Of a stretch of 64,000 bases of DNA, positions 39,475 to 62,503 are shown one piece after another; within the stretch, counting starts at the first letter, position 1; each line of letters opens with the position of its first letter. Position numbers and translations under genes: made by a program. Location of the stretch: assembly GCA_035627515.1 (NCBI GenBank), contig DASPLQ010000012.1:391269-455268 (forward strand), in the 5' to 3' direction. Below the pieces are notes generated by a model, which was not told where the DNA came from, did not search any database, and saw only the letters and a list, made by a program, of their open reading frames with translations. This DNA comes from Vitreimonas sp. Its GTDB lineage: Bacteria; Patescibacteriota; Microgenomatia; UBA1400; PJMF01.

Positions 39475-41508
39475 CTAAGAACCCGGAGGTTGATAGCTGT
39501 CGATTGAGTAAGGATCAAGTGGTGAGCCAGTTGCGGCTGGAGCTTTAGTACTGATTGGGGCAGGTGAGGATGTTGCTGCAGTATTTGAGCCAAGCGAGGC
39601 GTTAGGTGTCGGAGCGGCACCACGCAAAGCCCCATTAACCGTGGCCGGAGCTGGACCGGCTGCAGCGGCCGTGCGTGCTAATTGTTGCGCCACGCCGGCT
39701 TGGCGTTTTTTGAGGAGCTCTTCAGGGTTGGTAGTGATGACTTGATGTTCTACGTCACTAGCCACCACGCGCAAAGCCACGTGATTTTGGCCAGCGAAGA
39801 AAATGCCTTCACCGACATCAGCTGACACCAGCAACTGTCGTTCACCTTCGGATAAGTAAAACGTTTCTGCGAGCATCGGAATCGCAGCTGTAGATTGTTT
39901 CATCAAAAATTGAATCGAGGCGTTAGTGACAATAGCTTTGCCGTAGTCGCTGTGCAAGAAGTCTTCCACGTCTTGGGTGATGGTGGTAATACCTAAATAG
40001 TATTTCCGCGCGCGCTTGGCCATGGAGTGGATGAAAGAAGCCGAATCAGGATGCTTCATGAAGTACCACGCCTCATCAATAATTAACAACCGCTTTTTAA
40101 GCGTTTTTTTGATGCGGGTCCAAATGAAGTCTAAAATGATAAACATCGCAATCGGCCGCAGTTCTTCTTCCATTTCTCGGACGGAGAAGACAGTGAACTG
40201 ATTTTTGATGTCGAAGTTTGAAGGTTGGTCAAAAATCCCTCGGAAAGAACCGGTGATGTATTTTTCTAACCGGACTGCAATGTCATTAGCTTCAGCATTT
40301 TCCATACCAATTAACGCTTTGTAGAGGTCTTCCATTAGCGGGGGTTGATTGGTTTGCGTAGCTGGATCAGGAGTAATCCCTTTGGCTTTATAAGCAGCCA
40401 CCAAGGCTCGGTCGAGCATAGCTTCTTGAGAAGACGTCATGTTGCCCAACATCACTTTTAATAATGAATGGAGGGAAATGATCTTTTGACCAAGTTCATT
40501 TTCACCTTCTTCATATAGATTGGATAAATCAAAGGGATTAATTTTTTTATCAGAGTTAAAGGTAAAGTTAATGTACTCACCACCAACTGATTTGGCTAAG
40601 TCTTCATACTCATGTTCGGGGTCGAGCGCAATCACATCGATGCCAAACATTAATTGACGGAGAATTTCTAGCTTCACGGTGTATGATTTTCCGGCACCAG
40701 ATTTGGCGAACACGACCATGTTGGCGTTTTCCATCTTGAAGCGGTCGAAGATGACCAACGAGTCGTTGTGTTCATTGATACCGTAGACAATGCCAGTTTC
40801 CATAGTTAACTCGGACGAAGTGAACGGAAAAGTAGTCGCCAACGAAGTGGTGTCCATGTTACGGGTGACGAGTAATTTATCAACGCCCATCGGCAAGGTG
40901 GTTTTGAAGCCTTCATCCATTTGTAGCGTGGCTTTTTTAGAGACGATTAATAGAGAACCTAAAGTGGATTGAAGATTTTTAGTAACACGATCGAGCTCAT
41001 TTTTATCTTGAGCTTGAATGGTGACGTACAAACCGAATTGATAAAAGCGCTCGGCGCCTTTAGCGAGTTGCTCACGAATTATGCGGGCGTCTTCTAACTT
41101 AACTTCAGTGTTAATATTACTGATTTTTCCGGCCCGGATGTCAGACTGGATTTCAGCTTCCATTTCAGTGATCTTGCGCTTTAAGTTATCCAACACCTCT
41201 TTAACGTCGACTGGAAAAATAAACATCGAGATGTTGAGTTGGTGAGGAAAGTTGATCAAGGGTGACAACCAGTTAGCGGGCACCGTCCGAGGATAACCAG
41301 CCACAAATAAGGTCCGGGTGTAGGTGGAGTTAATTTTCTGATAGGTGAAATCAACCTCAATTGCTTCTGGAGCAATAATATCCTGAATCGTGACTAGACC
41401 CCGCGAAAATTCTTTCAGCTTCTCAACTTCTTGAGCTTCGGCATCTTGTTGTGGATCAGGTTGAGTTTTCTTATTGAAAAACGGCAACGGCAAATTAAAA
41501 CTGGGCAT
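39475..41508 (-). CDS. virB4: VirB4/TrbE/CagE-family T4SS ATPase. The core lacks the extreme N-terminal VirB4 segment and has an Ala/Pro-rich C-terminal tail.
   Basis: Walker A FAKSGAGKS. VirB4-specific Walker B LLIIDEAWYFM (DEAW). The Gram-positive VirB4 N-domain pattern YQKINSTYTRTLFVAGYPRTVPANWLSPLINFP...ISMFIFPVD is present. Confidence 0.75.
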   Translation of the reverse strand: MPSFNLPLPFFNKKTQPDPQQDAEAQEVEKLKEFSRGLVTIQDIIAPEAIEVDFTYQKINSTYTRTLFVAGYPRTVPANWLSPLINFPHQLNISMFIFPVDVKEVLDNLKRKITEMEAEIQSDIRAGKISNINTEVKLEDARIIREQLAKGAERFYQFGLYVTIQAQDKNELDRVTKNLQSTLGSLLIVSKKATLQMDEGFKTTLPMGVDKLLVTRNMDTTSLATTFPFTSSELTMETGIVYGINEHNDSLVIFDRFKMENANMVVFAKSGAGKSYTVKLEILRQLMFGIDVIALDPEHEYEDLAKSVGGEYINFTFNSDKKINPFDLSNLYEEGENELGQKIISLHSLLKVMLGNMTSSQEAMLDRALVAAYKAKGITPDPATQTNQPPLMEDLYKALIGMENAEANDIAVRLEKYITGSFRGIFDQPSNFDIKNQFTVFSVREMEEELRPIAMFIILDFIWTRIKKTLKKRLLIIDEAWYFMKHPDSASFIHSMAKRARKYYLGITTITQDVEDFLHSDYGKAIVTNASIQFLMKQSTAAIPMLAETFYLSEGERQLLVSADVGEGIFFAGQNHVALRVVASDVEHQVITTNPEELLKKRQAGVAQQLARTAAAAGPAPATVNGALRGAAPTPNASLGSNTAATSSPAPISTKAPAATGSPLDPYSIDSYQPPGS

Positions 41509-41590
41509 TGCTCCTTATTGTACGGTACTTTAGGGAGGAAAAGAAAGGGGTGGTGGAGTAAGAAGGGTATATAATGCCGACAAATAAAAG
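41509..41590. promoter_or_regulatory. divergent promoter region between virB4 and the small ORF
   Basis: A -10-like GGTATATAAT at 41560-41570. The RBS AAAGGTGA sits 8 nt upstream of the ATG at 41591. Confidence 0.35.
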
Positions 41591-41824
41591 GTGAAATATA
41601 TGGCAGAAAATGAACGAGAATTAGGGAAAAATGATGAAGCAGAATCAAGGACAGTGGGGCTGTTAAATTGGGAAGAGTTAACTCATGAATCTATCCTCAA
41701 CTTTTTAAGGCTTCAAGGAGGGGTAGAACTGGAAAATCTGTTAGCTCGCCGAACTGTATCTGAAAGACTCCAGATTAATGAGCGGGTAGTGCGACAGGCA
41801 CTTGAAAATGGAAGAAAAAGGTAG
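41591..41824 (+). CDS. small putative DNA-binding protein (77 aa) with a sigma-70 region-4-like HTH
   Basis: ILNFLRLQGG...RTVSERLQINERVVRQALENGRK resembles region 4.2 (LRFGL...TRERVRQIE). It has a good RBS and a -10. Confidence 0.4.
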   Translation: MKYMAENERELGKNDEAESRTVGLLNWEELTHESILNFLRLQGGVELENLLARRTVSERLQINERVVRQALENGRKR

Positions 41825-41866
41825 GTTTAGCGGAAAGGTTTGTTGAAAACACAATTTTTTCTATGC

Positions 41867-41883
41867 TGTGCCAATATTAACAA
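41867..41883. repeat. motif M, copy 2 (first 17 nt conserved)
   Basis: CTGTGCCAATATTAACAA is identical to the start of 25581-25611. Confidence 0.55.
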
Positions 41884-41987
41884 TTTTGAAACAATAAAAC
41901 AGACAATAATTGACAGCTTAAGAAAACAAGGCTTAGAGTTTTCATTGTTTTAAAGATGGTCTTCTTGTTGAGCACAGTTTTTCAGGC

Positions 41988-42016
41988 TTGTATGAATATT
42001 GGCAAAAATCATACAA
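41988..42016. repeat. palindromic motif P, copy 2
   Basis: TTGTATGA-atattggcaaaaa-TCATACAA. The arms match copy 1 and the spacer is the reverse complement of the copy-1 spacer. Confidence 0.6.
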
Positions 42017-42068
42017 ACTACACAAAAACCACTTTTTGAAGAAGAAATGATGAATCACAAACAAAAAC

Positions 42069-43409
42069 CTACAACTCCGCAATCGGCGGTAAATTGCTGG
42101 TTGGCCCAGGTGGGGTGATATCAGTGATAGCTGTTTTGGGATCGGTAGGGTGAGCTGGTTCACCCGGTGGAGTAGAGGATGCTGGTGGTGTGGGAGGCGC
42201 CTCTGCAGCTGGTAATTCACTAATCGTACTGGGTCCGGCTGGAGTGGGAGTAGGAACCGCTGGATCTGGCGCCAATGGTTCAACACTGGCTACAGAAGCA
42301 GTGGGTTGAGGCATGGCAGGCAGAGTGGGGGAGACAGGAGCTTCAACCGACATAACAGTTGTAGGAGCTACCGGAGTGGATGTCATGGCGGGCTGAGTTG
42401 GCGCCGGGGCCTGAAACACAACTTGGTTTTGCACTGGGGTAGCTGGTGGAGCTAGAGGAGTAGGGGAGACCGCTGGAGCAGGGGCAATCACTTCTACCGG
42501 CTGAGCAACAGGAACTTCTGGAACTGGAGTTGGCGCTGTTTCGGTTACAGGCGTAGTGGGAGCTGGCTCAGGTTGAGGTGCCACTGGTTGAGCGACGGCT
42601 TGAGGTTGTTGATAAGCCATAGGATCAGTCGCCGCCGCTTCAGGAGCATACGCTGGTTGAGGCAGTGGTTCCGGGGCTGGCGTAGGAGCTGCGGCCGCTG
42701 TTTGTCCTGTCACCAAGTTTTGCAACTGCATCCGCGCTGAAACTACAGGGGTGGTGTAACTGCGCGTATCAGTGACTTGTTGACCATCTGAAGCTTCAGG
42801 ATTGTAACTTAAGTAGAACAGCTGAATGATATCTTGGGTAGTGAGTTGTTTGGCAAATAAGCCGATGCGACCAAGTTGCGCCATTAAGTGATCGCGCTTA
42901 GGCTCTAAAATGTTACGAGCCTTCTCGATAATCAAACTACGTTCCACGGTACTGACATCAGTTTTTTTGACACCTGGAATCACTGAAGAAGGTGGTAACA
43001 AACCCATTTCCAAAGCACTGGCGGGAATGACCACATAGAATTTTTTATCTAAGACATTACGTTCACGAATTAAATCCGAGACAAAAGCGCGATATTGAGC
43101 AATTTGTTGTTTGCGCAAAGGCGATCCTGCTTGATCCTCCTGGTCTTTGAGGAGTTGTAAATATGAGGTGATATCTTTAGTTTGGGACCGAACCACGATT
43201 TGAATGGGATAGTTCAAAGAGTTAATTAAACCGGCATAAGCGTAAATGACTGCATCTTGTTCTTCCTCAGCAAACAATCCAAAGTTGATGGCGCTGACGT
43301 TGAGAACGAGCGCCACTGCACCATCCTTCATGATCAATAAATCATTGGTTATATCGTAAATATCGAGAAATTGTTGGGTAGTGGAGTGAATTTGGGCAGG
43401 AGTAGGCAT
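42069..43409 (-). CDS. VirB4 N-terminal-domain-like protein fused to a ~220-aa Pro/Ala/Thr-rich disordered tail
   Basis: LIMKDGAVALVLNVSAINFGLFAEEEQDAVIYAYAGLINSLNYPIQIVVRSQTKDITSYL follows the pattern of the first ~90 residues of Gram-positive VirB4 ATPases (dG.y..ilev.pINF.L.s.eEQ...i..y..fln.l....QI...s...d). That pattern is missing from the 39475..41508 ORF. Confidence 0.5.
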   Translation of the reverse strand: MPTPAQIHSTTQQFLDIYDITNDLLIMKDGAVALVLNVSAINFGLFAEEEQDAVIYAYAGLINSLNYPIQIVVRSQTKDITSYLQLLKDQEDQAGSPLRKQQIAQYRAFVSDLIRERNVLDKKFYVVIPASALEMGLLPPSSVIPGVKKTDVSTVERSLIIEKARNILEPKRDHLMAQLGRIGLFAKQLTTQDIIQLFYLSYNPEASDGQQVTDTRSYTTPVVSARMQLQNLVTGQTAAAAPTPAPEPLPQPAYAPEAAATDPMAYQQPQAVAQPVAPQPEPAPTTPVTETAPTPVPEVPVAQPVEVIAPAPAVSPTPLAPPATPVQNQVVFQAPAPTQPAMTSTPVAPTTVMSVEAPVSPTLPAMPQPTASVASVEPLAPDPAVPTPTPAGPSTISELPAAEAPPTPPASSTPPGEPAHPTDPKTAITDITPPGPTSNLPPIAEL

Positions 43410-44620: not shown

Positions 44621-45643
44621 TTACAATGGTAAACCGGTGCGGACAGCTGGGGTTAAGACCTCAATCGTGAAACTGTCTTGAGTGGTGTTTTTGGCAGTGC
44701 CGGTAAAATGATAAAACGGATACGCCAAGTTACTCTTACTATCAGTTCTGTACTCCAAACTCACACTGGTCATTTCGCCATCGGCAACATCACGGATATC
44801 GAGTGGCAAAGCGGTGTCATCATAGGCAGCGATGATGGAGCCTTGGTTGCGGTTGGTTAAGTTTTCCAGGGCTTCATTAACGGAAATTAACTCCACATTT
44901 TGATTGGCACGAGTCAGTGAGTAACTAGGTGTGAATGTGGCGCTTTGGACTTGTTGCCGAGCATTGACTATTATTACCACTGGCGGATTAGCTTGATAAT
45001 TAAAGAATACCGGAATGTCCTCAAATACATAACTAAACGGCACCCGGGCCATTTGGGCTTGAGAGGAATCAACTTCTTCACTTTCCACCGCCGCTGCGTA
45101 ATAGGTGATTTGGTTTTCCAGCGCTTTCAGCTCGAGAGCGCTCAAATATTCATCTACGAAGCCCTGGGAAATATCTAAAGCTTCGGTTTTGGTAATAATA
45201 CCGGCGCTGTCGGTGGCGACCACGTCTTGAGTGAGGCTTAACTCACCAGTGTTTACGTCTTTGCTTAAACTATAGCGGTCGCCAACCCACAAACCTTTTG
45301 AACTTGGGTGGGGTTGGAGTTGGAAATCATTCACGATCTCGCTTTCGATCTCTGCGGTGGCAAACGGCGTAGCTGACAATAAGGGCAAAGTTGCCGGCTG
45401 AGTAAATGGCTCACCCACGTACCGAAAACCGGCAAAGTTAGTAGTGCTGCCGTCGGCATTGGCGGTAGTAAACTCAGTCGTGGGAACTTCGGAAATCGGA
45501 GGAGTCAATAACCGTAAGGTCAACGCAATGACGATGCCGACAAGCGCAAACGCCAGCAAATACCATAGCCAACGGCTACTGAACGGGTTCGGTGTAACAG
45601 GTTCGGACGGGATCGTAAAGTTTGACATCTTTATCAGGCACAA
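44621..45643 (-). CDS. bitopic membrane protein (340 aa). It could be the VirB8/TcpC-like component by position and topology.
   Basis: A single N-terminal TM (WLWYLLAFALVGIVIALTL) with the rest extracytoplasmic. No motif-level support. Confidence 0.35.
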   Translation of the reverse strand: MCLIKMSNFTIPSEPVTPNPFSSRWLWYLLAFALVGIVIALTLRLLTPPISEVPTTEFTTANADGSTTNFAGFRYVGEPFTQPATLPLLSATPFATAEIESEIVNDFQLQPHPSSKGLWVGDRYSLSKDVNTGELSLTQDVVATDSAGIITKTEALDISQGFVDEYLSALELKALENQITYYAAAVESEEVDSSQAQMARVPFSYVFEDIPVFFNYQANPPVVIIVNARQQVQSATFTPSYSLTRANQNVELISVNEALENLTNRNQGSIIAAYDDTALPLDIRDVADGEMTSVSLEYRTDSKSNLAYPFYHFTGTAKNTTQDSFTIEVLTPAVRTGLPL

Positions 45644-48600
45644 AGTTGCGAATGCGACTGCTGGAAGTATTATAGAACTGTCCGCTAGTATTAGAAACCT
45701 CGTAATGAAGGTGTGGTCCCGTAATCACAACCTTCGCTGAGCCACCGGTAGAACCAACTTCACCAATGGGATGTCCAGCGGGAATCTCTTTATCATTTGA
45801 TAAGCGCGAATCGATTTTACTTAAATGAGCAAACACGAATCGTTCACTACCGGTATCAAGCACGACATACTTGCCAAAAGAACCAAAACCACCCCCCAAA
45901 CTGTTAATCTTAACAGTTCCAGCAAACGGTGTATAAACAGGTACACCACGGTTGGCACCAATGTCAAAGGAGTCAGATTTGCCATGCGAGTGAGAGCCAA
46001 ACGGTAATTGCGTAATCCGACCATCAACTGGCCAGCAGCCGTTTTGATTTTGTGGACACTCACCAATACAAATCACCTCTGCGCCACTGGCATTCAAGTT
46101 CTCACCAGATTTGTTTTCTTCTCCTCGTTCTAACAGTTCCGGAGTAGCCTGAGCTGAGAATAAAATTTCTACTTTATTAGAAACGTTACTGTCTCTAAAT
46201 GCCGAGTCAAAGGTTTGAGAATACGGATTGAGCGTGATTTCTTCACCACTATTAAGAATAATTTCACCATCGACCAGCCGCTCAGCCGGCACGAGCTCGG
46301 CGGTAGTCCGGGTGGGAAGGGTCGGTGTGGGGTCAGAGCCGCGGGTCTCAGTGTTAAGTTTGACCGTCATTACGTCCACGACGTTGCGAATTTTTAAGTC
46401 ATAACCTTTGTTGGCTTTGATGGTAATCGAGTAATCTGCCGTGGCAGGCAGCTCAGCATTTTCGAATTTAATTTTTGGTGAGACGCGTTTTTCGATGGTC
46501 ACATAAGGAGAGAGTTCACCACTCGAATCAGTGGTTGGCAGAGGTTGCAAGGTGGTGGAAACAGTGGCGGCAGCAGTCATGAACGTAGTCACCCCAATGA
46601 TGCCAGCGCCCGCTACCGAAGCTCCCACTACACCAAAGCCACCCCCCCCGGCTGCAGCTCCAGCACCGCCACTACCCAAGATGCCCCCACCGCCACCTCC
46701 TGAAGCAGCACCGCTGCCAAAAGGGTTAGTCAGGATATTACCAGCGCCACCACCTCCCGTAAGAGAAGAGAAGGCGCCACTAATTGAATTTAAGCCATTT
46801 TGAATGAAGGAACCAATGCCGTAGCCGACTCCAGCTCCACCGATGGCACCACCTAGCGCGCCAAACGGACCTCCTACTGAACCTAAAAACGCCCCTACGC
46901 CAGCTCCCACCCCGGTGGTCAGCGCAATGATGGGTGATTTGTTCATCAACATCAAGAAGGCAGTAGTCAAACCTGTAGCACCTGCCGCCAGCCCCATCAG
47001 GATTTTTTCACGATTATTAAGGACCTTTTGGGCGATGCGCTCTACAGCGGCTCCTCCTACAGGAGTCATGTATGCCGAGGCCAATGTCCCCAGGGCTTTG
47101 GCAGCGACAGCGTCAGTAGCAGCGCGCAAACGATCATTGGCTGCCATGCCTTCTGGTTTACCACCCATTACGTATTGGCGAAGTTTGTCCACAGCACTGA
47201 GGCCTTTGGTGGCTGGGCCGCCCTCTCCGGCACCGGCAGCTCCTGGGCTTGTTTGGGCGCCACCTCCTAGAGTCCGGATGGTGTTCATTACCGAGTGCGG
47301 CACGAAGCCGTTGCCAGGGTTGCCACCCACTTGTTCGACTTCGACAGTGTTCAGGTGGAGCTCAGTAAAAATTTCATACCGGATTTCATAGGAAATCAGC
47401 AAATGAGCCGGAACTTCTTGACCACTTTTTTGTGCAGGGAGCGTATACGCATTGACTAGATCTTCAGCTGTGATGTGAGTTTGAAGTAACTTAGCTGGAG
47501 CCTGAGTCCGAGCTGCAGCTTGGTGAAACCACTGGGTGTGTTGCTGGGAGTCTTGAGTTTCGGCCGGAAAAATATGTTGAAACTGGGCTAAGCCCTTTTC
47601 ACCTTTAGGATCAAATTCTGCAAATAACTGTTGATAATACGTCGTTAGTTCTGGTCGGAGTTGGTCGAGCTCAGCTGGTTTAATCTCAAAGCCAAACAGC
47701 GTCTGAAAGTCTTTTGGTGACAAAAATTGAATCCAGTCATCAGAATGACCTGTAATCGCCAAGGCTTCTAATCGTGCTTTGGTGCTCCGTAGTTTACCTA
47801 AATCATTGGGATTGCCTGAAGCATCAAGCGTAATCAGGCCAGCTTCAGCCAGCTTTTGTTTCAGGTAAGAGGCTGATTTAGGTTCTTGGCCAATATTGGC
47901 TCCTACAGCCGGTGTCACTTCTGTGAACTGTGTTTGTGGTTGTGTAGTCTGGGGGAGTTGATAGCGAATGGCTACGTCGCTGACATTAAAGTAGGTATGC
48001 AGGTGTTGAAGTTCCCGCACCAGGCCGCTCATGTTGTTTTTGGTGAGCAATTTTTCCAGATCCGCTGGGTTAGTTTCTTGGAGACGACTCAAGTGGATAT
48101 CTACGTAGCCCGAGACTAAGCTCTCGAGGTCAGCCATCGGCATGGTGTTAATATCGAAGCCTTCATTGACCAGCTGCGCCTTCATGCTGGCCAGCAAGCC
48201 ATATTGGAGGGTCGTTTTGACGCGGGCTAGTTGTTTAGCGGCTTCTTCGGGAGCCATGGTGCCGGCTGCAATCTCGGCTGCAATTTCCGCAGCTCCCAGA
48301 GGTTTAGCAAGCTGGTTTTTGGTAATTTCTTCAGGTTTTTGTTCAGTCTGAGGTTCCTGGGTGGTTTTCGTCTCAGGTTTTTGGTCGTCATCGAGATCGT
48401 CCTCGGTCACCAGTTTCTCGTCGGCATCTTTTTCTTTTTGTGGTTGAGCTAATTTTTGCTCAGCCTCTACAAAGGCAGGGAGATTAGTAGCTAAAACCTG
48501 CAGCGCACTCGACAAACGCCCCAGATTAACGGGCGTCAAAAACGCGGCTTCATTAAAGCGTTCTGCAGATTGAGGATCTTGGCCCAAGCTCAAGAGTTCT

Positions 48601-54234: not shown

Positions 54235-54245
54235 GGAGTTAATAC

Positions 54246-56230: not shown

Positions 56231-59200
56231 GTGATTTCAAGGGAAAAATGGTATAATATGGTCACTGTGTCAAAAGGCCATGAACAAGAACAAGTTAATA
56301 TCAGCGAAATCTCGCAAAGGCAGCGTGATGTAATTGATATTTCTAAGTACTTAGATACAGCTCCTCAATCTCAAGTTAAACCCGTCATGGCAACACTTCG
56401 TGAAGTCATGAAAGGCGATGGGATTTCGTATGCTGAAAAGTTGAGATTAATGGTTCGAGAACTATCTGGAGTGTTAAAAAGAACTGATGCTAAGAAGCGT
56501 GAAGCCTTGCTTAAAATTGAAAATGATATTTTACATGAGCTAGGCACCATTGCTTTTGACATTGATCTTGAGGATGATCAAGATAAACAACTGGTGTTAC
56601 TTCAACAATACGCGGAGTACGTTTACGTGATGGAAGAAGTAATTGTTCCTGCCTTAAAGCAAGAAACAGCTGTTGATAATGCCTTATTGGCTCAGAAAAA
56701 AACCGGTGAGACAGACCTTTTAACAACAGTAGCTGAGAATCCACCAGAGGCTACTGATGACCCTGCGATATGGAATGCAGCTATTACTCAAGTCACCGAA
56801 AGAATTACTAAATTCCATGAGACCTTGCAAAAGGTATTAAATGCCCCCGATAGAAGAGTTGCTTTGGAAGAGCATTCAGATGCCTTGATTGAGTTACAGT
56901 ATGAAGCACAGAACGCCATTAGTTTTATTTTGTTGTCTAATGTCATCCAATCTACTCCAGACAGAGATAAACAAATAAATAATTTAAACAAGGCCTTTGA
57001 GGGGTTAAAACAAAGCTTTGAAAAGTTAAGAAGTGAAAGAGTCACTGCTGAACAAGCAGTTACTGGTCGAGACAAATCAAGTGTGGAAGACTGGGAAAAA
57101 AATCCAGAATTACATCCTGATGCGGCTAAAAATGTAAGACGAGCAATTGTTGCTGCTCAACCTAATCTTGAAAGCTTAGTAACTAAAAAACCTCAGGCAA
57201 AATGGTCCCCCAAACAGTTTGATGAACGAATCGATCTAATTGATCAAGTTGAGGCCCAGCTTCAGAGACCAGCTCAAAGATTGTTGGTTACCATTGAAGC
57301 ATATCAAACGGCTCCAGAGCCCCACCCTGATAAAAAGGCCAGCAACACTGAAAAAGCTAATTTCTTACAATGGCATTATTATGATAATCCCGCCTCTGGA
57401 GAAAAAGGTAAACCCAAATTTGAAGAAATGGGTGTAGGAGTAATTCTTAAGTTTTTGAGTGAAATGCGTCAATACACGTGGGAAATGAAAGCTGAAAAAC
57501 GTTTCCCTGAATTAATGAAAGATATTAGTCGATTTGTAGATCGTGAAAAAGAGCCGAAGCCACCTAAGAATGTGGCTGAAGTAGGTGGTTATTATCTTCA
57601 GTTACAAAAAGATATCACTGACCTGAGACAACTTTTAGATGCAGCTATTACTGTAGTTCAAGAAGACGATAAAATCCAACCTGAAGAAAAAGAGTTCTTA
57701 TTGAAAAACCTTTTTGAAAAATATGATCAAGAGCTTAATCGTCGGATTGAAAAAATTTATGCCTTTTGGACGGGAAAAACCGGCGAAGAGTTTAATATTG
57801 AAATCTTGTATCCTGAACTTACTGAGCTAAGAAAAAACGCTAAAAAATGGAAGAGTGAACATGGTCATGAAAGTAAAAATGCTAAGTTATTGGCTGATCT
57901 GATCCCCCGAGCAAGGCATGCCGTCCTCGCTAATCCCACGTATACTTACCCTGGTGATGACGGTCGTTATGGAGCTTTCTTAGATGAGCGCTATTTTGGG
58001 CCAGCAACCGAAGCGTATAAACATATTCACGAAAATATACACCATCCTCATGGTTATGAAAAATTAATTATCGATTTCTTTGAACAGCAGTCTGGCAAAC
58101 ACCATCATCCTGAACTAATAAACGAAGGCTGGCGTGATGCTGCGCCCGAAGTGTTAGCTGATGCTTTGTGGCAATATATTCGTGTGTTTTTGTTTGATAT
58201 TGTGGCCAGTCGGGCTCAAAACAACTTTTTTCCGGTCAAGATTCATCACTTTGAAGTCCCCTTGCATGACCATGATCATAGTCATATGTCGCAAGTCATT
58301 GGTTCTCTGGGCGCATTAGGATCATATTTTAAGTTGCATGGTGAAGCAGAAAAAGGACAAAAGTTGATTGAGGCTGAAGGTCGGATGTTCTTGGACTGTA
58401 GTCAAATTGAGTTTGTGATGAATTTTGGTCATGATCTCTTTAGCAAATCTAAAGACATGGAAGGCATTAAAAAGTTACTGGGTAGTAATGCCTATGATAA
58501 AGATGATTTAGAGCGGATGTTTATTATTGGGAGAGACTTTGAAACCGGAGTCTACACAGGAACCAGAATAGGTAGAGCTTGGCAAGCAGTTTATGCCATG
58601 AATGAACCAGTTATTCATGAAATTGCGTTAAGATCTGGGGAACTTAAGAACGTAGGAGATCCTACAACTCACTTGCGTTTTGTACGAAATGTTAAAGAAA
58701 AGAATGCATTAGCCTTTTTCCCATGGGAAGATGTTAATAAAAATCCTGAAAAAACTCAGTTAGCATATGTAAAAAGCGTTTTAATTCAAATTATTGCCGG
58801 TTCTGAAGAAGAACCCCCTTGGATGATTAGCAAGAACTATGAAGAAAGAATGAAGTTTTCGCAAAATTATTTGCAATGGCGATTGTTTGGTGACTATGAT
58901 TCCAGTAAACCTCTAAATGAACAAGGCAAAGACATAAGAGGAATTATGGATGGCAGTGTCCCTCGAGGTGGAGATCAGAAAAAGCCACACGAACGAAGTT
59001 TGTGGGCGCGTTTTCTAGCAGCCGGCGGTAAAGTGGGCACAAAAACTACAGATAGAAATATTTCACTAGGAGATGGGGCACCGTCTGAATTTTTAACGGC
59101 TGAAGAAGACACATTAAGAGACAAAGGTTTCTTAGCCCAGAAAGTGGCTACTAACTTCTATTACATTAGTATGGATCATGCTCGAGCTTCTGGGGGTGGC

Positions 59201-60571
59201 ATGGTCAAAGGTGAGAAAGCCGATGAGTATGTTAGAGCTATCAGTGCTGCTCGCGGCATAAATGGGCGTAACTATGAAGCACGCAAAGATTCTAAAGGAT
59301 ATCTAGAAGTTAAAGTTGGTAATAACTGGTATAAAGTCCATGATACTTCTATGGGAACACTTGGAGAAAATATGGGTGATCGGCCTGCCAACGCCGGGAC
59401 CTATCGTTCCAAGCTCAAGAGTGGCACCGGAGCTGATGGTGCAATTGGTCCTTTTATCAGTATTGATTATTTCTACGAAACCCTACCTTCTGCCACCGCT
59501 ACATATGCATCGATGACGGCAGAAAAATCTTACTTTGGTAAAACATTAGCACAAGAGTTATTCTTAGCTAACGATGGCCAATTTGATAAGATTCCGTTCC
59601 AAAATTATATTGCTGGAGAAGATAGAGCGGTCCGTTATAAAGATACTGGCAGTCTAGGTGTAGAAATGTACGAAAAGATTGTCGGTGGACTTGGTATCAA
59701 CTGGGCCTCAATTGCAACCGCAATGAAAGGGGCTGCTACTTCGCCGATCTTTAACTTTAGAGAGTTAGAAAAAGTGCAAAAGCTTTCTCGAAATGTTTAT
59801 TATTTACTCACACGAGATTATGGTGGTGAGCTGCACAAATGGCCTACTAAAGAGCAATATTGGCGCTATCGTATTATTGAACAATATTGGCAAAATAATG
59901 ATCGCGACTTTGCTAAGATTCCTGTCGGAGCAAAAGTCACTTCCGCTCCAGGGGGATTACCAGCCCGTTATAACGGTTTAGTAGTGGAGGTAACAGATGA
60001 AGACCGCAAAACCATCCTCAAAGCCAATCGCCGATATGATAAGACGTATGAGCTATTCGACGCTCGACCCACAAAAGATGAATCAGAGATGTCTCCTGAT
60101 GAAGTAAATGATTTCGATGACAGTGATGGCGGTTATTCTCGATATATTTCTAATGTTCACAACGCCTATCGAATTGCGAAGTTTTTGCCTGATGAAGCAC
60201 CTAAAAATGAATTCGAGAGAACAGTGATACGCAATGAGACAGATGGCTACATGATGCGCAAAAAATTGATTTTAGGACTATTACTTATCAATGACATTTC
60301 AGTTTCATCATTAACAGGTATTAGCTGGGATGACATTGTGGTAATTGTTGAGTTCTTAAGTAATGAATATTGGCAAGCACGGAATGCCAATGAATTTAAT
60401 ACTTTTATTGGAGATCTCTTCGGTAGACCGAAACGAATTTACAACGGTTTGGGACTCTTTTCTCGCGAAGAAGCTTTTGCGCTGTTGCGTAGCGCGGGTG
60501 TTGATACTAGTGTTCTCTCACGCATTACTGCGATGTCAGAACGCTTATCCCGTGTGCCGGGTGTGAAGTAA
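56231..60571 (+). CDS. giant hypothetical protein (1446 aa), with no signal peptide or domain recognised
   Basis: An uninterrupted 4.3-kb ORF, preceded by TGGTATAAT. It has repeated E(Q)YWQ(N/A) motifs and a His-rich stretch, HHPHGYEKLIIDFFEQQSGKHHHPE. Confidence 0.5.
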   Translation: MISREKWYNMVTVSKGHEQEQVNISEISQRQRDVIDISKYLDTAPQSQVKPVMATLREVMKGDGISYAEKLRLMVRELSGVLKRTDAKKREALLKIENDILHELGTIAFDIDLEDDQDKQLVLLQQYAEYVYVMEEVIVPALKQETAVDNALLAQKKTGETDLLTTVAENPPEATDDPAIWNAAITQVTERITKFHETLQKVLNAPDRRVALEEHSDALIELQYEAQNAISFILLSNVIQSTPDRDKQINNLNKAFEGLKQSFEKLRSERVTAEQAVTGRDKSSVEDWEKNPELHPDAAKNVRRAIVAAQPNLESLVTKKPQAKWSPKQFDERIDLIDQVEAQLQRPAQRLLVTIEAYQTAPEPHPDKKASNTEKANFLQWHYYDNPASGEKGKPKFEEMGVGVILKFLSEMRQYTWEMKAEKRFPELMKDISRFVDREKEPKPPKNVAEVGGYYLQLQKDITDLRQLLDAAITVVQEDDKIQPEEKEFLLKNLFEKYDQELNRRIEKIYAFWTGKTGEEFNIEILYPELTELRKNAKKWKSEHGHESKNAKLLADLIPRARHAVLANPTYTYPGDDGRYGAFLDERYFGPATEAYKHIHENIHHPHGYEKLIIDFFEQQSGKHHHPELINEGWRDAAPEVLADALWQYIRVFLFDIVASRAQNNFFPVKIHHFEVPLHDHDHSHMSQVIGSLGALGSYFKLHGEAEKGQKLIEAEGRMFLDCSQIEFVMNFGHDLFSKSKDMEGIKKLLGSNAYDKDDLERMFIIGRDFETGVYTGTRIGRAWQAVYAMNEPVIHEIALRSGELKNVGDPTTHLRFVRNVKEKNALAFFPWEDVNKNPEKTQLAYVKSVLIQIIAGSEEEPPWMISKNYEERMKFSQNYLQWRLFGDYDSSKPLNEQGKDIRGIMDGSVPRGGDQKKPHERSLWARFLAAGGKVGTKTTDRNISLGDGAPSEFLTAEEDTLRDKGFLAQKVATNFYYISMDHARASGGGMVKGEKADEYVRAISAARGINGRNYEARKDSKGYLEVKVGNNWYKVHDTSMGTLGENMGDRPANAGTYRSKLKSGTGADGAIGPFISIDYFYETLPSATATYASMTAEKSYFGKTLAQELFLANDGQFDKIPFQNYIAGEDRAVRYKDTGSLGVEMYEKIVGGLGINWASIATAMKGAATSPIFNFRELEKVQKLSRNVYYLLTRDYGGELHKWPTKEQYWRYRIIEQYWQNNDRDFAKIPVGAKVTSAPGGLPARYNGLVVEVTDEDRKTILKANRRYDKTYELFDARPTKDESEMSPDEVNDFDDSDGGYSRYISNVHNAYRIAKFLPDEAPKNEFERTVIRNETDGYMMRKKLILGLLLINDISVSSLTGISWDDIVVIVEFLSNEYWQARNANEFNTFIGDLFGRPKRIYNGLGLFSREEAFALLRSAGVDTSVLSRITAMSERLSRVPGVK

Positions 60572-60724
60572 CTAGGTTTCTGAAATCCCTGAGAAAAAAA
60601 ACGCTATAAATATCCTCTACCAGGATAGTAAAACTATTGCACAACAATTATTGTGATAGGTGAATAACAATTTGTAATTGCCATTTTAATTTGAGTATAT
60701 AAGGGAAGTACTGCTTGAGTTACC

Positions 60725-62503
60725 TTAAGCATCAGGGAAATTTTTAGGAGTGCTTTCGTCAGATCTTGGAACATGTCCATGGTTATCTGGTGTATCTCCC
60801 ACAGTTTCTTGACCCGGTGTAGTTGGGCCTGTGGAATCTCCGGGCTCAGTACCCACCGCAGTTGTCCCAGGGCGACGACGAGCGCCATTACCCCAATTAC
60901 GAATGTTGTTAAGTGTTTGAGAAGCTGTAGCACCAATGTCACCGGTATCTTTTCCAAATGCATCTGCAAAGGCTGCCCAGTTACGAACAAAGTTTCCAGT
61001 ATTATTGACCACACGAGCTCCTCTTCTAACTATAGGTATAGCTAATGGTAACGCAGCCCCAACTGCAGCACCAGTGCCAGCATAGCTGAAATTACTGCTC
61101 CGAGGCACGGCATCTTCACCTTGTGCTCGTCTTCTACGTTGAGCTAATAGATATCCTGCCCCTGCACCAAGAGCAGCTCCACCCACACCAAGAGCGGCAC
61201 CGCCGACCATGGCGGTAGCAATACCACGTCTATCTGCTACCTTCTTATACGCAGCTCCCATCAACTCTCCAAACACGCCACCATCGCCAGCGCCTAAAGC
61301 CTTCTTCACTTTATCAACTACCTCTGGTAAAGCTAAGACTAAACCTAAACCGATCAAGACTGTGAGGGCGTCACCAGTGCCAGAACCGAACAAGTATGGT
61401 GGTAAGAAGCCAGTGCCTTCAGCGCCAATGGAGTCGCCGGTGCGGGCATCGATTAAGTGGGAGTAAACGATCAAAACCATCAAGACAGCGGGGAAGACAG
61501 CTAAGTTACCAACTAACGATTTGATCCAACCAGTAAAAGTACTGCCTCGACCAGGAATGGCCGTGGTCATGAGTAATAATGGTGACAAGGTAATAGTCAT
61601 GATGATGGTGATATACGTTTTGAGCAGTGAGAAGAAGAGTTTCATCATCGAGAAAATGATGACGACTAAAATGATGATTAAAAGAGTGATTTCTGATAAC
61701 CAACTGACAGCATTGGAAACCACACCACCAAAACCATTGAGGCTACCATCAATAAAGTCGCCAATGGCATCGACACTGGAGAGCGTGCCGTGGGTGAGAA
61801 TATATATGGTCAACTGGACGATGTTTTTATCAATTAAGTTAGTTTCTTGGCCAAAAACGCCGACGAGTAAGAACATGACTACATACATTAAGTCGATCAA
61901 TAAGCCTGCAATAGCATACGAAAAAGTGACAGCAAATAAAGCTAAAATGACGTTAGGGATGGCTTGCTGAGCAGTGACAGCGCTGGAGCCCATTTTTTGA
62001 CGGAACATAATCAAGAAACCGATAGCTAACATCACTAAAATTAAGAACAAATAGGCGAGGTTGCGGAATAATTTCCAGGCTTGAAGCACAGGTGATAGTG
62101 AGGCAAAACCTAAACCTTGGGCATAAGCTTGAGGAACGATATGCGCGGAGTTGAGGACATCAGCGACGTAGGTAGCGGTATCAGCCGGTGGGTTTTCATA
62201 CATGGCGACGACAGCACGGTTAATCCCGCCGATTGCGCCACCGCCATAAGCGACGCCAATTGAGTTACTTTTACACTCAGGACTAGCCATAGTGCCGCCG
62301 AGCAAACAAACCGTGGTACCGAGAAAACTGGTTTCGAGGAGATAACTGCCCGTGTGAGCTAGGTTGGCACGGACTTCGTTGTTGGCAAGGTCATTGCCTT
62401 CGTTGGTTTCTCTAATGATGTCATTAGCAGTGTTAGCATAAGCTGGCACAACCACTAATAACACTAAGACTAAACCGGCGAGCAGCTTTTTGAGCATATG
62501 CAC
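60725..62503 (-). CDS. VirB6/TrbL-like polytopic membrane protein (592 aa) with a signal peptide, at least six TM helices and a Gly/Ala-rich C-terminal tail
   Basis: MHMLKKLLAGLVLVLLVVVPAYA is a signal peptide. An extracytoplasmic domain of about 130 aa is followed by TM clusters (LAYLFLILVMLAIGFLIMF, LALFAVTFSYAIAGLLIDLMYVVMFLLVGVFG, LLIIILVVIIFSMMKLFFSLLKTYITIIMTITLSPLLLMTTAI, LAVFPAVLMVLIVY). The assignment rests on topology only. Confidence 0.45.
   Translation of the reverse strand: MHMLKKLLAGLVLVLLVVVPAYANTANDIIRETNEGNDLANNEVRANLAHTGSYLLETSFLGTTVCLLGGTMASPECKSNSIGVAYGGGAIGGINRAVVAMYENPPADTATYVADVLNSAHIVPQAYAQGLGFASLSPVLQAWKLFRNLAYLFLILVMLAIGFLIMFRQKMGSSAVTAQQAIPNVILALFAVTFSYAIAGLLIDLMYVVMFLLVGVFGQETNLIDKNIVQLTIYILTHGTLSSVDAIGDFIDGSLNGFGGVVSNAVSWLSEITLLIIILVVIIFSMMKLFFSLLKTYITIIMTITLSPLLLMTTAIPGRGSTFTGWIKSLVGNLAVFPAVLMVLIVYSHLIDARTGDSIGAEGTGFLPPYLFGSGTGDALTVLIGLGLVLALPEVVDKVKKALGAGDGGVFGELMGAAYKKVADRRGIATAMVGGAALGVGGAALGAGAGYLLAQRRRRAQGEDAVPRSSNFSYAGTGAAVGAALPLAIPIVRRGARVVNNTGNFVRNWAAFADAFGKDTGDIGATASQTLNNIRNWGNGARRRPGTTAVGTEPGDSTGPTTPGQETVGDTPDNHGHVPRSDESTPKNFPDA

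What the first reader, a model, noticed from the sequence alone, without database searches (positions are those of the whole stretch)
39475..62503. A Gram-positive-type T4SS-like gene set sits immediately next to dnaA/oriC, with no relaxase, coupling protein or integrase in view
Directly downstream of dnaA on the minus strand lie several T4SS-type components:
- a VirB4-family ATPase (Walker A GAGKS and the diagnostic DEAW Walker B);
- a PrgI/VirB3-like two-TM protein;
- a bitopic membrane protein;
- an 1142-aa membrane protein ending in an M23 peptidase, functionally analogous to the VirB1/PrgK/TcpG cell-wall hydrolases of Gram-positive T4SSs;
- about 20 kb further on, a VirB6/TrbL-like polytopic protein.
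Between them are two giant ORFs (1102 and 1446 aa) with no known domains.

Nothing resembling a relaxase, VirD4 coupling ATPase, integrase or att repeats is seen. The cluster is embedded in the most conserved part of the chromosome, the rpmH-dnaA-dnaN region. It therefore looks like a resident machine rather than an integrative conjugative element (ICE). In a small-genome, possibly epibiotic bacterium, such a machine could serve host interaction or effector delivery, or DNA uptake in a ComB-like role.
Basis: partly seen in the sequence, partly recalled or inferred. Interest (0 to 1): 0.8.

Follow-up and report, generated by a model that had tools for sequence, protein, structure and literature searches.

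The report
Patescibacterial type IV secretion locus beside dnaA
This is a real chromosomal type IV secretion gene cluster sitting right next to the replication-origin genes of an ultra-small (CPR/Patescibacteria) bacterium, but this kind of cluster, its position beside dnaA and its lack of conjugation genes were already described in 2023-2025 papers.

Summary
On the minus strand, immediately 5' of dnaA, lie five genes:
- a VirB4 ATPase (NCBIfam CD1110 family, above cutoff);
- a PrgI/VirB3-like gene;
- a conserved bitopic protein;
- a 1142-aa membrane protein ending in an M23 peptidase.

No relaxase, coupling protein, integrase or att/tRNA site occurs in the 64 kb. None was found within 10 kb of virB4 in 80 related species.

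In most of those 80 species the order is M23 giant-bitopic-PrgI-TrsD-VirB4-dnaA-dnaN-rpmH-rnpA-yidC-jag. VirB4 similarity tracks that of the housekeeping neighbours. It is therefore a resident, vertically inherited machine, not an ICE.

This is the Patescibacteria-clade T4SS described by Quinonero-Coronel et al. 2025, Wang et al. 2023 and McLean et al. 2020. Those papers already note the dnaA proximity and the missing relaxase.

Three modest additions:
- fold evidence for a divergent VirB6, if this lineage is Microgenomatia (class not tested), where VirB6 was reported scarce;
- a hypervariable slot holding near-orphan giant genes, one of which (1102 aa, with a 145-aa partner) is a cassette also found away from any visible T4SS gene;
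- a predicted pilin array just beyond the window.

Interest is low to moderate.

The parts
39475..41508 (-). VirB4-family ATPase (677 aa). It lacks the usual N-terminal ~175 residues. Walker A is GAGKS and Walker B is DEAW. The C-terminal tail is Ala/Pro-rich.
   Evidence: NCBIfam NF045971 (CD1110 family): 385 bits against a cutoff of 325, matching model positions 178-733 of 752. Pfam P-loop_TraG and AAA_10. PDB 4AG5 at E 4e-49. Identity to 80 species-level relatives is 72-85%.
41509..42068 (.). Genome-specific 560-nt spacer between the TrsD-like gene and virB4. It carries intergenic repeat motifs and an opposite-strand 77-aa ORF (41591-41824, +).
   Evidence: Two relatives examined (L003, L004) have only 24-45 nt at this position. 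The 17-mer TTGTTAATATTGGCACA occurs three times in the window, always in intergenic DNA. A 50-nt block is 94% identical to 25477-25526. A Logan contig ends inside this spacer.
42069..43409 (-). TrsD-like protein (446 aa). Its N-terminal ~130 aa are homologous to the N-terminal domain of VirB4, followed by a long Pro/Ala-rich tail.
   Evidence: NCBIfam TrsD/TraD at E 1e-6 (protein residues 12-128) and VirB4_plasma model positions 105-236 at E 4e-7. Adjacent to virB4 in 74 of 81 loci. Matches the TrsD component described in PMC12102498.
43441..44583 (-). PrgI/VirB3-like membrane protein (380 aa) with a C-terminal CarboxypepD_reg-like beta-sandwich domain.
   Evidence: Pfam PrgI 27.7 bits (cutoff 27) and CarboxypepD_reg at E 9.5e-6. 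The same two domains appear in the relatives L087 and L088. Found in 71 of 81 loci.
44621..45643 (-). Conserved bitopic membrane protein (340 aa, one N-terminal TM). It sits where a VirB8/TcpC-type component would be expected. Its fold is unresolved.
   Evidence: TM at residues 29-47. 48 homologues in the same position among the relatives. No Pfam or PDB sequence hit. hhalign against pCW3 TcpC was negative. The single-sequence AF2 model has pLDDT 41 and is unusable.
45576..49004 (-). 1142-aa membrane protein with a C-terminal M23 (LytM-type) peptidase. It is the probable cell-wall-remodelling (VirB1-analogous) component.
   Evidence: Pfam Peptidase_M23 at E 2e-14, residues 1011-1106. TMs at 668-808. 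Counterparts of 1087-1681 aa occupy the same position in 44 or more loci.
49061..50695 (-). 544-aa protein of unknown function, restricted to a narrow lineage. It is the first gene of the variable slot.
   Evidence: No Pfam or NCBIfam hit. A homologue occurs only in L004 (E 2e-54), again just upstream of the M23 gene.
50926..54683 (+). Two-gene cassette on the opposite strand: a 1102-aa protein (annotated start gives 1079 aa) with a Gly/Ala-rich hydrophobic core, followed by an acidic 145-aa partner (54246-54683).
   Evidence: Only 10 weak relatives among 1.84 billion representatives, all matching within roughly residues 580-870. In two of them the big gene is again followed by a 148-aa gene; one was compared and is 28% identical to the 145-aa partner (E 6e-12). 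Those pairs lie next to tsaD, tsaE and yidC, with no T4SS gene visible on the short contigs. GC3 is 0.34 against 0.41-0.48 for the core genes.
54747..56201 (-). 484-aa protein of unknown function in the variable slot.
   Evidence: No significant family hit. A homologue occurs only in L004 (E 3e-11).
56231..60571 (+). 1446-aa orphan ORF on the opposite strand, with no Sec-type signal peptide evident by eye (not tested with a predictor). It is real coding sequence but has no detectable relatives.
   Evidence: The only hit in the 5.8-billion-protein collection is itself. No family hit. GC1 0.53 against GC3 0.32 is the periodicity expected of a real gene.
60725..62503 (-). VirB6-like polytopic membrane protein (590-592 aa) with a Gly/Ala-rich C-terminal tail.
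62583..63626 (+). Weakly DHH/NrnA-like protein, the conserved divergent neighbour of the VirB6-like gene. Probably not part of the machine.
   Evidence: PDB 4LS9 (DHH family) at E 5e-6 and NrnA at E 1e-4, over the N-terminal region only. Homologues lie next to the VirB6-like gene in L083, L084, L087 and L088.
36013..39327 (-). The dnaA (37663-39327), dnaN (36280-37386) and rpmH (36013-36165) genes, with a probable oriC in the dnaA-dnaN spacer (37387-37662).
   Evidence: Pfam Bac_DnaA and DNA_pol3_beta. L34 is called in the Logan contig. 3 of the 5 window-wide TGTGAAYA matches fall in this 276-nt spacer, next to an AT-rich stretch. Two further box-like sites lie upstream of dnaA.

Best explanation
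The region is the chromosomal, vertically inherited type IV secretion system typical of Patescibacteria (CPR). It derives from the monoderm MPF-FATA conjugation machinery but has lost, or been separated from, the DNA-processing functions.

**Shown**
- A core operon reads into dnaA on the minus strand: M23 cell-wall peptidase giant, bitopic protein, PrgI/VirB3-like, TrsD-like, VirB4.
- A VirB6-like channel subunit lies 19 kb upstream.
- The two are separated by a slot of fast-evolving or orphan genes that differs between lineages.

**Inferred from relatives**
- An array of VirB2-like pilin genes should lie just beyond the right edge of the window.

**Inferred mechanism**
- The split VirB4 (TrsD-like N-domain plus ATPase), docked on PrgI/VirB3, powers assembly of a VirB6-based membrane channel.
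- The M23 protein opens the cell's own wall locally.
- A pilus-like tube contacts or penetrates the bacterial host on which the cell lives. It serves the exchange of macromolecules with the host, either export of proteins or import of host material, rather than conjugation.
- The origin-proximal position gives high, replication-linked gene dosage.

The giant opposite-strand ORFs are most likely unrelated cargo inserted in the variable slot, not machine parts.
For: **Component identities.** (VirB4, TrsD, PrgI, M23; VirB6-like fold).

**Lineage.** The closest VirB4 homologues, at 72-85% identity, come from Patescibacteria, Pacebacteria, Woesebacteria and Microgenomates MAGs.

**Resident, not mobile**
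- dnaA follows virB4 in 77 of 81 loci. TrsD is present in 74, PrgI in 71, and dnaN, yidC, jag and RNaseH in 65-70.
- VirB4 bit scores correlate with DnaA (rho 0.67) and DUF4012 (rho 0.68), while housekeeping genes correlate with each other at 0.39-0.58.
- Median identity is VirB4 79%, DnaA 54%, DnaN 44%, indicating strong purifying selection.
- No relaxase, T4CP or integrase in the window, nor in 41 cluster representatives of 94 unassigned ORFs around virB4 in the relatives.

**Locus layout in relatives.** Pilin array (PF18895, 7-8 genes), a ~1050-aa protein, then the DHH-like gene, VirB6-like, opposite-strand large ORFs, M23 giant, bitopic, PrgI.

**Origin proximity.** A DnaA-box cluster lies in the dnaA-dnaN spacer.

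**Literature**
- PMC12102498: VirB4 found in 2,417 of 3,035 genomes; relaxases rare; proximity to dnaA, dnaN, rnpA and rpmH; gene-dosage idea.
- PMC10633639: T4SS genes essential for epibiotic growth of S. epibionticum, with no recognisable relaxase or coupling protein.
- bioRxiv 10.64898/2026.06.21.733656: a cultured Microgenomatia parasite shows tubular structures, possibly T4SS pili, at the host interface and takes up host RNA.
Against: - No function was tested here. Direction of transport and substrate are unknown.
- The pilin array was not seen because it would lie outside the window.
- No VirB8-like component could be demonstrated.
- The VirB6 assignment rests on a predicted fold with moderate scores (TM-score on the target 0.40-0.47; Foldseek E about 7e-3). 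It has almost no sequence support (TrbL in 1 of 52 members; hhalign against TcpH negative).
- A coupling protein or relaxase elsewhere on the 1.41-Mb contig cannot be excluded. PMC12102498 reports VirD4-like genes in many Patescibacteria, far from virB4.
- The 80 relatives were chosen by VirB4 similarity, which biases the conservation comparison somewhat.
- The GC-skew sign change lies at about 30 kb, roughly 7 kb from the proposed oriC.
Confidence: 0.85

Rival explanations
1. It is an integrative conjugative element, or the decayed remnant of one, that happened to insert next to dnaA.
For: VirB4 scores best against a conjugation-type model, the CD1110 family of clostridial conjugative transposons. 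The region from 50 to 60 kb has lower GC and GC3. A genome-specific 560-nt insertion carrying repeat motifs lies inside the operon.
Against: No relaxase, T4CP, integrase, tRNA target or flanking repeats were found. The same gene order next to dnaA occurs in 77 of 81 loci from different species. VirB4 co-diverges with its housekeeping neighbours. No mobility genes occur around virB4 in the relatives. Published phylogeny shows a monophyletic, class-congruent Patescibacteria clade (PMC12102498).
Confidence: 0.03
2. It is a ComB-like DNA-uptake (competence) machine that imports DNA as a nucleotide source or for transformation.
For: T4SS-derived DNA importers exist (H. pylori ComB, archaeal Ced). 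VirB4 gives weak sub-threshold hits to the CedB and CedD models. Relaxase and coupling protein are absent. The organism probably lacks nucleotide synthesis (general knowledge of CPR biology; bioRxiv 10.64898/2026.06.21.733656).
Against: The Ced hits are far below cutoff (51 bits against 700). In S. epibionticum competence depends on type IV pili and ComEC; deleting comEC abolishes competence but not viability, while the T4SS genes scored as essential in Tn-seq (PMC12857230 on Wang 2023). No competence genes lie in this locus, whereas the published comF/recG/radA association is specific to class ABY1 (PMC12102498).
Confidence: 0.1
3. The giant opposite-strand ORFs (1446 aa; 1102 aa plus 145 aa) and their neighbours are dedicated substrates (effectors, one with a chaperone-like partner) or host-range determinants of this T4SS. 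On this view the 'slot' is a functional cargo bay.
For: Large domain-less ORFs occupy the same slot between the VirB6-like gene and the M23 gene in several lineages, always unrelated to each other. The giants show no Sec-type signal peptide by eye (translations; no predictor run). The 1102-aa gene is followed by a small acidic helical protein. Their evolution is rapid or they are orphans.
Against: The cassette of the 1102-aa gene and its 145-aa partner occurs in two other genomes beside tsaD, tsaE and yidC, with no T4SS gene visible on those short contigs. No secretion signal or toxin domain is detectable. Orphan genes with low GC3 also occur elsewhere in the window. Co-location alone is weak evidence.
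Confidence: 0.15
4. The ATPase is a HerA/FtsK-type translocase and the cluster is not a T4SS at all.
For: Pfam DUF87 (HerA central domain) also matches, at E 8e-8.
Against: The VirB4 equivalog model is passed above its curated cutoff. The closest solved structure is a VirB4. PrgI, TrsD-like and VirB6-like partners are co-located.
Confidence: 0.01

Closest known systems
Patescibacteria-clade T4SS (Quinonero-Coronel et al. 2025, Microb Genom, PMC12102498)
   Same: VirB4 with an adjacent TrsD and PrgI/VirB3. An M23-containing cell-wall hydrolase takes the place of a classical VirB1. No relaxase or T4CP lies nearby. The location is chromosomal, next to dnaA, dnaN, rnpA and rpmH. Relatives carry VirB2-like pilin arrays.
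   Different: Nothing essential differs. That paper reports VirB6 homologues as scarce in Microgenomatia and VirB8 as almost undetected. Here a divergent family with a VirB6-like fold is linked to the locus, and a conserved bitopic protein occupies a VirB8/TcpC-like position with its fold unresolved. The class of this genome was not tested.
T4SS of Southlakia epibionticum ML1 (SEML1_0006-0019; Wang et al. 2023, Cell, PMC10633639) and of Nanosynbacter lyticus TM7x (McLean et al. 2020, PMC7427843)
   Same: A monoderm-type T4SS near the start of the chromosome, with no recognisable relaxase or coupling protein, pilin genes in the cluster, and peptidase or lysozyme genes next to virB4. It is essential for epibiotic growth in ML1.
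   Different: Those organisms belong to a different class (Saccharimonadia) and have a different gene order. Essentiality has not been tested for this lineage. Here the pilin array, if present, lies outside the window, and an 11.5-kb variable slot splits the locus.
MPF-FATA conjugation systems of Gram-positive bacteria (C. difficile CTn2/CD1110 type, pCW3 Tcp, pCF10 Prg, pGO1 Trs)
   Same: VirB4 of the CD1110 family, PrgI/VirB3, TrsD, a VirB6-like polytopic protein and a large membrane-anchored peptidoglycan hydrolase. From my own knowledge, PrgK of pCF10 also carries a LytM/M23-type domain.
   Different: No relaxase, no FtsK/VirD4-type coupling protein, no oriT or integrase. VirB4 lacks its N-terminal domain, whose homologue is encoded separately as TrsD. 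The locus is fixed in the chromosome beside oriC and inherited vertically.
R388 TrwI/VirB6 (PDB 7O3V, 8RT9, 8RTD)
   Different: Sequence identity is 13-15%. The protein is twice as long, with an N-terminal extracellular region and a Gly/Ala-rich tail. There is no VirB5 partner, and the organism is a monoderm.

Membership tests
VirB4/TraC-type T4SS ATPase (CD1110 subgroup) | Passes the curated family model | tested here: met
   NF045971 scores 385.1 bits against a cutoff of 325. PDB VirB4 4AG5 matches at E 4e-49.
VirB4/TraC-type T4SS ATPase (CD1110 subgroup) | Walker A and Walker B motifs | tested here: met
   GAGKS and LLIIDEAW are read directly in the translation.
VirB4/TraC-type T4SS ATPase (CD1110 subgroup) | Full-length architecture including the N-terminal domain | tested here: not met
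   The match starts at model position 178 of 752. An N-domain homologue is encoded separately as the TrsD-like gene. This split is typical of the Patescibacteria and pGO1 types (PMC12102498).
Patescibacteria-clade T4SS | VirB4 belongs to the monophyletic Patescibacteria clade | tested here: inconclusive
   No tree was built. Most of the 80 closest loci (72-85% identity) carry Patescibacteria or CPR-lineage record titles; many others carry evidently wrong labels such as 'Pseudomonadales', 'Limisphaerales' or 'TM6'. This fits the clade but is not a phylogenetic test.
Patescibacteria-clade T4SS | TrsD and PrgI/VirB3 encoded next to virB4 | tested here: met
   Conserved in 74 and 71 of 81 loci respectively.
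Patescibacteria-clade T4SS | VirB6-type polytopic channel subunit | tested here: met
Patescibacteria-clade T4SS | VirB2-like pilin genes in the cluster | not testable with these tools
   There are none in the window. In the relatives L083, L086 and L088 the array lies upstream of the VirB6-like gene (beyond the DHH-like gene in L083 and L088), which here falls past position 64000. The flanking sequence could not be fetched.
Patescibacteria-clade T4SS | No relaxase or coupling protein near virB4; chromosomal location near dnaA/dnaN | tested here: met
   for the absence of mobility genes, and for the location.
Integrative conjugative element | Relaxase plus T4CP | tested here: not met
   No such domain occurs in any ORF of 120 aa or more in the 64 kb, nor around virB4 in the 80 relatives. 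The rest of the genome was not seen.
Integrative conjugative element | Integrase or recombinase and att repeats, often at a tRNA gene | tested here: not met
   No integrase domain was found. The only tRNA sits next to the 23S rRNA gene at 14.9 kb. Only short, chance-level repeats were found.
Integrative conjugative element | Variable presence and position among related genomes | tested here: not met
   The position beside dnaA is the same in 77 of 81 loci.
VirB8/TcpC-like (NTF2-like) component, tested on the 340-aa bitopic protein | Bitopic topology with NTF2-like extracellular domain(s) | tested here: inconclusive
   Topology and size fit. There is no Pfam or PDB sequence hit. hhalign against TcpC gives probability 0.1. 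The AF2 single-sequence model has pLDDT 41.
ComB/Ced-type DNA import T4SS | Passes the CedB/CedD or ComB family models; linked to competence genes | tested here: not met
   CedB scores 50.7 bits against a cutoff of 700 and CedD 28.4 against 600. No competence genes occur in the window.

The most novel reading that the evidence does not exclude
The roughly 11.5-kb stretch between the VirB6-like gene and the M23 gene may be a lineage-specific 'cargo bay' of the Patescibacterial T4SS. Its giant, domain-less, near-orphan proteins, which show no Sec-type signal peptide by eye (1446 aa; 1102 aa with a small acidic partner; 544 aa and 484 aa), would be secreted substrates or host-specificity determinants. 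They would turn over as the epibiont adapts to different hosts. In addition, the 592-aa family would be the 'missing' VirB6 of the Microgenomatia-type systems, if this lineage is indeed Microgenomatia.
Probability: 0.15. Interest if true: 0.6.

Novelty: already known. Interest (0 to 1): 0.25.

Why it matters
The Patescibacterial T4SS matters in itself. It is the first T4SS shown to be essential for the growth of its bearer, and it may be the conduit through which these ultra-small parasites exchange material with their hosts. That significance has already been recognised in print.

This locus adds three things:
- a clean, well-conserved example from a relative with a comparatively large (about 1.4 Mb) contig, probably of the Microgenomatia (class not tested);
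- fold-level evidence for a divergent VirB6 that profile searches miss;
- a pointer to a hypervariable slot of giant orphan genes inside the locus, a reasonable place to look for substrates or host-range factors once a cultured relative can be manipulated.

Tried and rejected
**Seeing beyond the window.** Exact-product look-ups for the 347-aa and 592-aa proteins found nothing. The VirB4 look-up returned only a 16.5-kb Logan contig that ends inside the TrsD-virB4 spacer. The metagenome scan did not recover the source contig, and the source genome was not among the 80 genome-collection loci kept. The flanks therefore remain unseen.

**VirB8/TcpC test of the bitopic protein.**
- The profile search against PDB sequences and the Pfam scan of 42 family members were both negative.
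- The single-sequence model was too poor to search with.
- hhalign against pCW3 TcpC was negative.

**Sequence-level VirB6 tests of the 592-aa family.**
- The PDB profile search was negative.
- Pfam TrbL matched 1 of 52 members.
- hhalign against pCW3 TcpH was negative.
- Only the fold searches were informative.

**Promoter and terminator scan of 37-51.5 kb.** Counts equalled the shuffled expectation, so nothing can be said about operon boundaries.

**Repeats flanking the cluster or the variable slot.** Only short matches were found, apart from the 17-mer intergenic motif.

**Similarity between giants.** None between the 1102-aa and 1142-aa proteins.

**Class assignment.** The supplement of PMC12102498 held none of the relatives' accessions. 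'Microgenomatia' therefore rests on the names of the related MAGs and on my own knowledge.

Full report
**What is there**

The window is a chromosomal segment of a Patescibacteria (CPR, phylum Minisyncoccota) genome.
- The VirB4-like protein is 100% identical to a protein on a 1.41-Mb contig. That record carries the evidently wrong label 'Vitreimonas sp.'.
- Its closest relatives, at 72-85% identity, are MAGs named Patescibacteria, Pacebacteria/Paceibacterota, Woesebacteria or Microgenomates.

The gene order, read 5' to 3' on the minus strand, is listed below.

| Coordinates | Product |
|---|---|
| 60725-62503 | polytopic 592-aa protein |
| 49061-60571 | five ORFs: 1446 aa (+), 484 aa (-), 145 aa and 1102 aa (+), 544 aa (-) |
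| 45576-49004 | 1142-aa M23 protein |
| 44621-45643 | 340-aa bitopic protein |
| 43441-44583 | 380-aa PrgI-like protein |
| 42069-43409 | 446-aa TrsD-like protein |
| 41509-42068 | 560-nt spacer |
| 39475-41508 | VirB4 |
| 37663-39327 | dnaA |
| 36280-37386 | dnaN |
| 36013-36165 | rpmH |
| downstream | rnpA, yidD, yidC, jag, RNase H, a 1005-aa DUF4012 protein, L25 |

The T4SS genes therefore lie upstream of dnaA and read into it.

**Component identities**

- **VirB4.** It passes the curated NCBIfam model for the CD1110 family of VirB4-like conjugal ATPases (385 bits, cutoff 325). It matches only model positions 178-733. Pfam gives P-loop_TraG and AAA_10. The best solved-structure match is the Thermoanaerobacter VirB4 domain 4AG5 at E 4e-49. 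GAGKS and DEAW are present.
- **TrsD-like protein.** The gene just upstream of virB4 matches TrsD/TraD and the N-terminal part of a VirB4 model. This is the TrsD component reported as the commonest T4SS partner in Patescibacteria (PMC12102498).
- **PrgI-like protein.** It just passes Pfam PrgI and carries a CarboxypepD_reg-like domain. The same pair of domains is seen in relatives.
- **M23 giant.** The 1142-aa protein has central TM helices and a C-terminal M23 peptidase.
- **VirB6-like protein.**
  - The 592-aa protein belongs to a family of more than 580 proteins; none of the 120 listed has a precomputed Pfam domain.
  - Its MSA-based AlphaFold model is confident over the TM core, with pLDDT 80-95.
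  - That model finds chains of R388 stalk (TrwJ/VirB5-TrwI/VirB6) entries as the top seven Foldseek PDB hits, with E from 7e-3 to 0.12 and probability 0.9-1.0.
  - Sequence-level tests were essentially negative, so this assignment is by fold only.
- **Bitopic protein.** It is conserved in position (48 homologues), but its fold could not be resolved.

**Not an ICE**

- No ORF of 120 aa or more in the 64 kb carries a relaxase, coupling-protein or integrase domain.
- The only tRNA (Ala) sits next to the 23S rRNA gene.
- No meaningful flanking repeats exist.
- A scan of species-representative genomes returned 80 loci. tblastn shows one conserved block: M23 giant-bitopic-PrgI-TrsD-VirB4-dnaA-dnaN-(rpmH)-rnpA-yidC-jag-RNaseH-DUF4012-L25.
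- In those loci, dnaA follows virB4 in 77 of 81. TrsD is present in 74 and PrgI in 71. Many of the misses are short or truncated contigs.
- VirB4 similarity to the window co-varies with that of DnaA (rho 0.67) and DUF4012 (rho 0.68). That is at least as strong as the co-variation among housekeeping genes, 0.39-0.58.
- VirB4 is much better conserved (median 79%) than DnaA (54%), DnaN (44%) or YidC (56%) in the same genomes. The loci were ranked by VirB4 similarity, which biases this comparison somewhat.
- 94 otherwise unassigned ORFs of 220 aa or more lie within 10 kb of virB4 in those genomes. They collapse to 41 clusters, and none has a relaxase, T4CP or recombinase domain.

**Full layout, from relatives**

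Two relatives with longer context (L087, L088) show the following order:
1. a sigma factor (L088 only; the L087 locus starts at the DHH-like gene);
2. seven or eight PF18895 T4SS pilin genes (L088 only);
3. a ~1050-aa protein (L088 only);
4. a 184-aa protein (L088 only);
5. the homologue of the window's 347-aa gene, on the opposite strand;
6. the VirB6-like gene;
7. opposite-strand ORFs of 844-950 aa and 237-250 aa;
8. the M23 giant;
9. the bitopic protein;
10. PrgI.

L083 and L086 show the pilin array and a large protein upstream of the VirB6-like gene too. Several contigs of 25-55 kb carry both a VirB4 and a VirB6-like family member (compare contig lengths).

By synteny, the window is therefore cut just before a probable pilin array. 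This is inference; the flank could not be fetched.

**The variable slot and the giant ORFs**

- The genes between the VirB6-like gene and the M23 gene differ completely between lineages. Slot ORFs from the window, L068, L086 and L087/L088 share no detectable similarity except between close relatives. None has a Pfam domain.
- The 1446-aa ORF has no homologue other than itself in the 5.8-billion-protein collection.
- The 1102-aa ORF has ten weak relatives in 1.84 billion representatives, all matching within roughly residues 580-870, a Gly/Ala-rich hydrophobic module.
- In two of those relatives the large gene is again followed by a 148-aa gene. The one compared is homologous to the window's 145-aa ORF (28% identity, E 6e-12). 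The pair lies beside tsaD, tsaE and yidC, with no T4SS gene on those short contigs.
- The slot genes show the codon-position GC pattern of real genes but a lower GC3 (0.32-0.34) than the core genes (0.41-0.48).
- I therefore read them as fast-evolving or inserted cargo rather than machine parts. A role as substrates or host-range factors is possible but unsupported.

**Origin proximity**

- The 276-nt dnaA-dnaN spacer holds 3 of the window's 5 TGTGAAYA sites, further near-matches and an AT-rich stretch.
- Two box-like sites precede dnaA.
- virB4 thus ends about 2 kb from the likely oriC.
- The GC-skew sign change, however, lies at about 30.0-30.5 kb. This roughly 7-kb offset is unexplained.

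**Comparison with what is known**

- Quinonero-Coronel et al. 2025 (PMC12102498) surveyed 3,035 Patescibacteria genomes.
  - They found VirB4 in 2,417 of them, mostly in one clade nested in MPF-FATA.
  - They found adjacent TrsD and PrgI/VirB3, M23- or LysM-containing hydrolases and VirB2-like pilin arrays, and almost no relaxases.
  - T4CP genes were rarely near virB4, and in Paceibacteria and Microgenomatia dnaA, dnaN, rnpA and rpmH were frequent neighbours. They suggested a gene-dosage effect.
- Wang et al. 2023 (PMC10633639) showed by Tn-seq that the T4SS genes of S. epibionticum are essential for epibiotic growth and lack recognisable relaxase and coupling proteins. A 2025 review repeats this (PMC12857230).
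- A 2026 preprint on the first cultured Microgenomatia reports tubular structures, possibly T4SS pili, penetrating the host, together with uptake of host RNA.
- The finding is therefore correct but already known. The modest additions are the fold-based VirB6 assignment (the 2025 survey reports VirB6 as scarce in Microgenomatia, which is the probable but untested class of this genome) and the description of the variable slot.

**Mechanism**

The steps below are inferred, not shown.
1. The TrsD-like N-domain homologue and the VirB4 ATPase dock on PrgI/VirB3 at the membrane.
2. They energise assembly of a VirB6-like channel and a pilin tube.
3. The M23 protein opens the cell's own peptidoglycan.
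4. The structure contacts the host bacterium and mediates transfer of macromolecules. Direction and substrate are unknown.
5. The position beside the origin and read-through towards dnaA would tie expression to replication.

Confidence is about 0.85 that this is the resident Patescibacterial T4SS. Confidence in any particular substrate is much lower.

Noticed in passing
window 25581-25597 (-), 41867-41883 (-), 63697-63713 (+); also 25477-25526 vs 41988-42037: A 17-mer, TTGTTAATATTGGCACA, occurs three times perfectly, always in intergenic DNA. Only 0.32 matches are expected even when 3 mismatches are allowed. A 50-nt palindromic block is 94% identical between the 25.5-kb spacer and the TrsD-virB4 spacer, and 25581-25619 matches 63676-63713 at 90%. 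This could be a regulatory site or a small repeat element.
   Followed up: partly
window 41509-42068: The 560-nt gap between the TrsD-like gene and virB4 appears specific to this genome; the two relatives examined (L003, L004) have 24-45 nt there. It contains the repeat motifs and an opposite-strand 77-aa ORF (41591-41824) with no family hit. A Logan assembly of the same organism breaks inside it.
   Followed up: partly
window ~30000-30500 vs 37387-37662: The GC-skew sign change (minus to plus) lies between the L25 and DUF4012 genes. That is about 7 kb from the DnaA-box cluster in the dnaA-dnaN spacer. All genes from 30 to 49 kb are on the minus strand although the plus strand is G-rich there.
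   Followed up: partly
window 39475-50695 (-) and the related loci: virB4 and the T4SS core are transcribed towards dnaA and the putative oriC. They would therefore run head-on to the rightward replication fork. The virB4-to-dnaA arrangement recurs in 77 of 81 loci. No terminator is evident in the 147-nt virB4-dnaA spacer, though the scan was uninformative.
   Followed up: no
VirB4 vs neighbours, loci L002-L081: VirB4 (median 79% identity) is far more conserved than DnaA (54%), DnaN (44%), YidC (56%) or L25 (45%) across the same genomes. This degree of constraint is unusual for a secretion ATPase. The loci were selected by VirB4 similarity, which biases the comparison.
   Followed up: partly
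window 50926-54683 (+); L089 734-3737; L090 952-4343: The 1102-aa gene and its acidic 145-aa partner form a two-gene cassette. It recurs in two other genomes (whose neighbouring genes are typical CPR housekeeping genes) beside tsaD, tsaE and yidC. The family is very sparse, with 10 relatives in 1.84 billion representatives.
   Followed up: partly
window 62583-63626 (+); L083, L084, L087, L088: A weakly DHH/NrnA-like protein (E 5e-6 to a DHH family protein, over the N-terminal region only) is the conserved divergent neighbour of the VirB6-like gene. By eye, the DHH catalytic motifs look degenerate. This is intriguing given the reported RNA-feeding lifestyle, but it was not examined further.
   Followed up: partly
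window 11478-14972 (-): The order is tRNA-Ala, 23S, 5S, with no 16S rRNA gene anywhere in the 64 kb. The position upstream of tRNA-Ala is occupied by protein-coding ORFs. The rRNA operon therefore appears to be unlinked.
   Followed up: no
window 37663-39327 (-): DnaA is long (554 aa). A Ser/Pro-rich low-complexity linker of about 110 residues sits between the N-terminal domain and the AAA+ domain. VirB4, the TrsD-like protein and the VirB6-like protein also carry long Pro/Ala/Gly-rich tails.
   Followed up: no
source records: The public records are taxonomically mislabelled. The source contig is called 'Vitreimonas sp.'. Many close relatives are labelled 'uncultured Pseudomonadales', 'Limisphaerales' or 'TM6', although their gene content and homologues are patescibacterial.
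   Followed up: no
window 1853-6060 and 15681-20908 (-): Two runs of four consecutive ORFs each (208-426 aa) have no Pfam or NCBIfam hit. Several have a GC3 as low as that of the slot genes.
   Followed up: no
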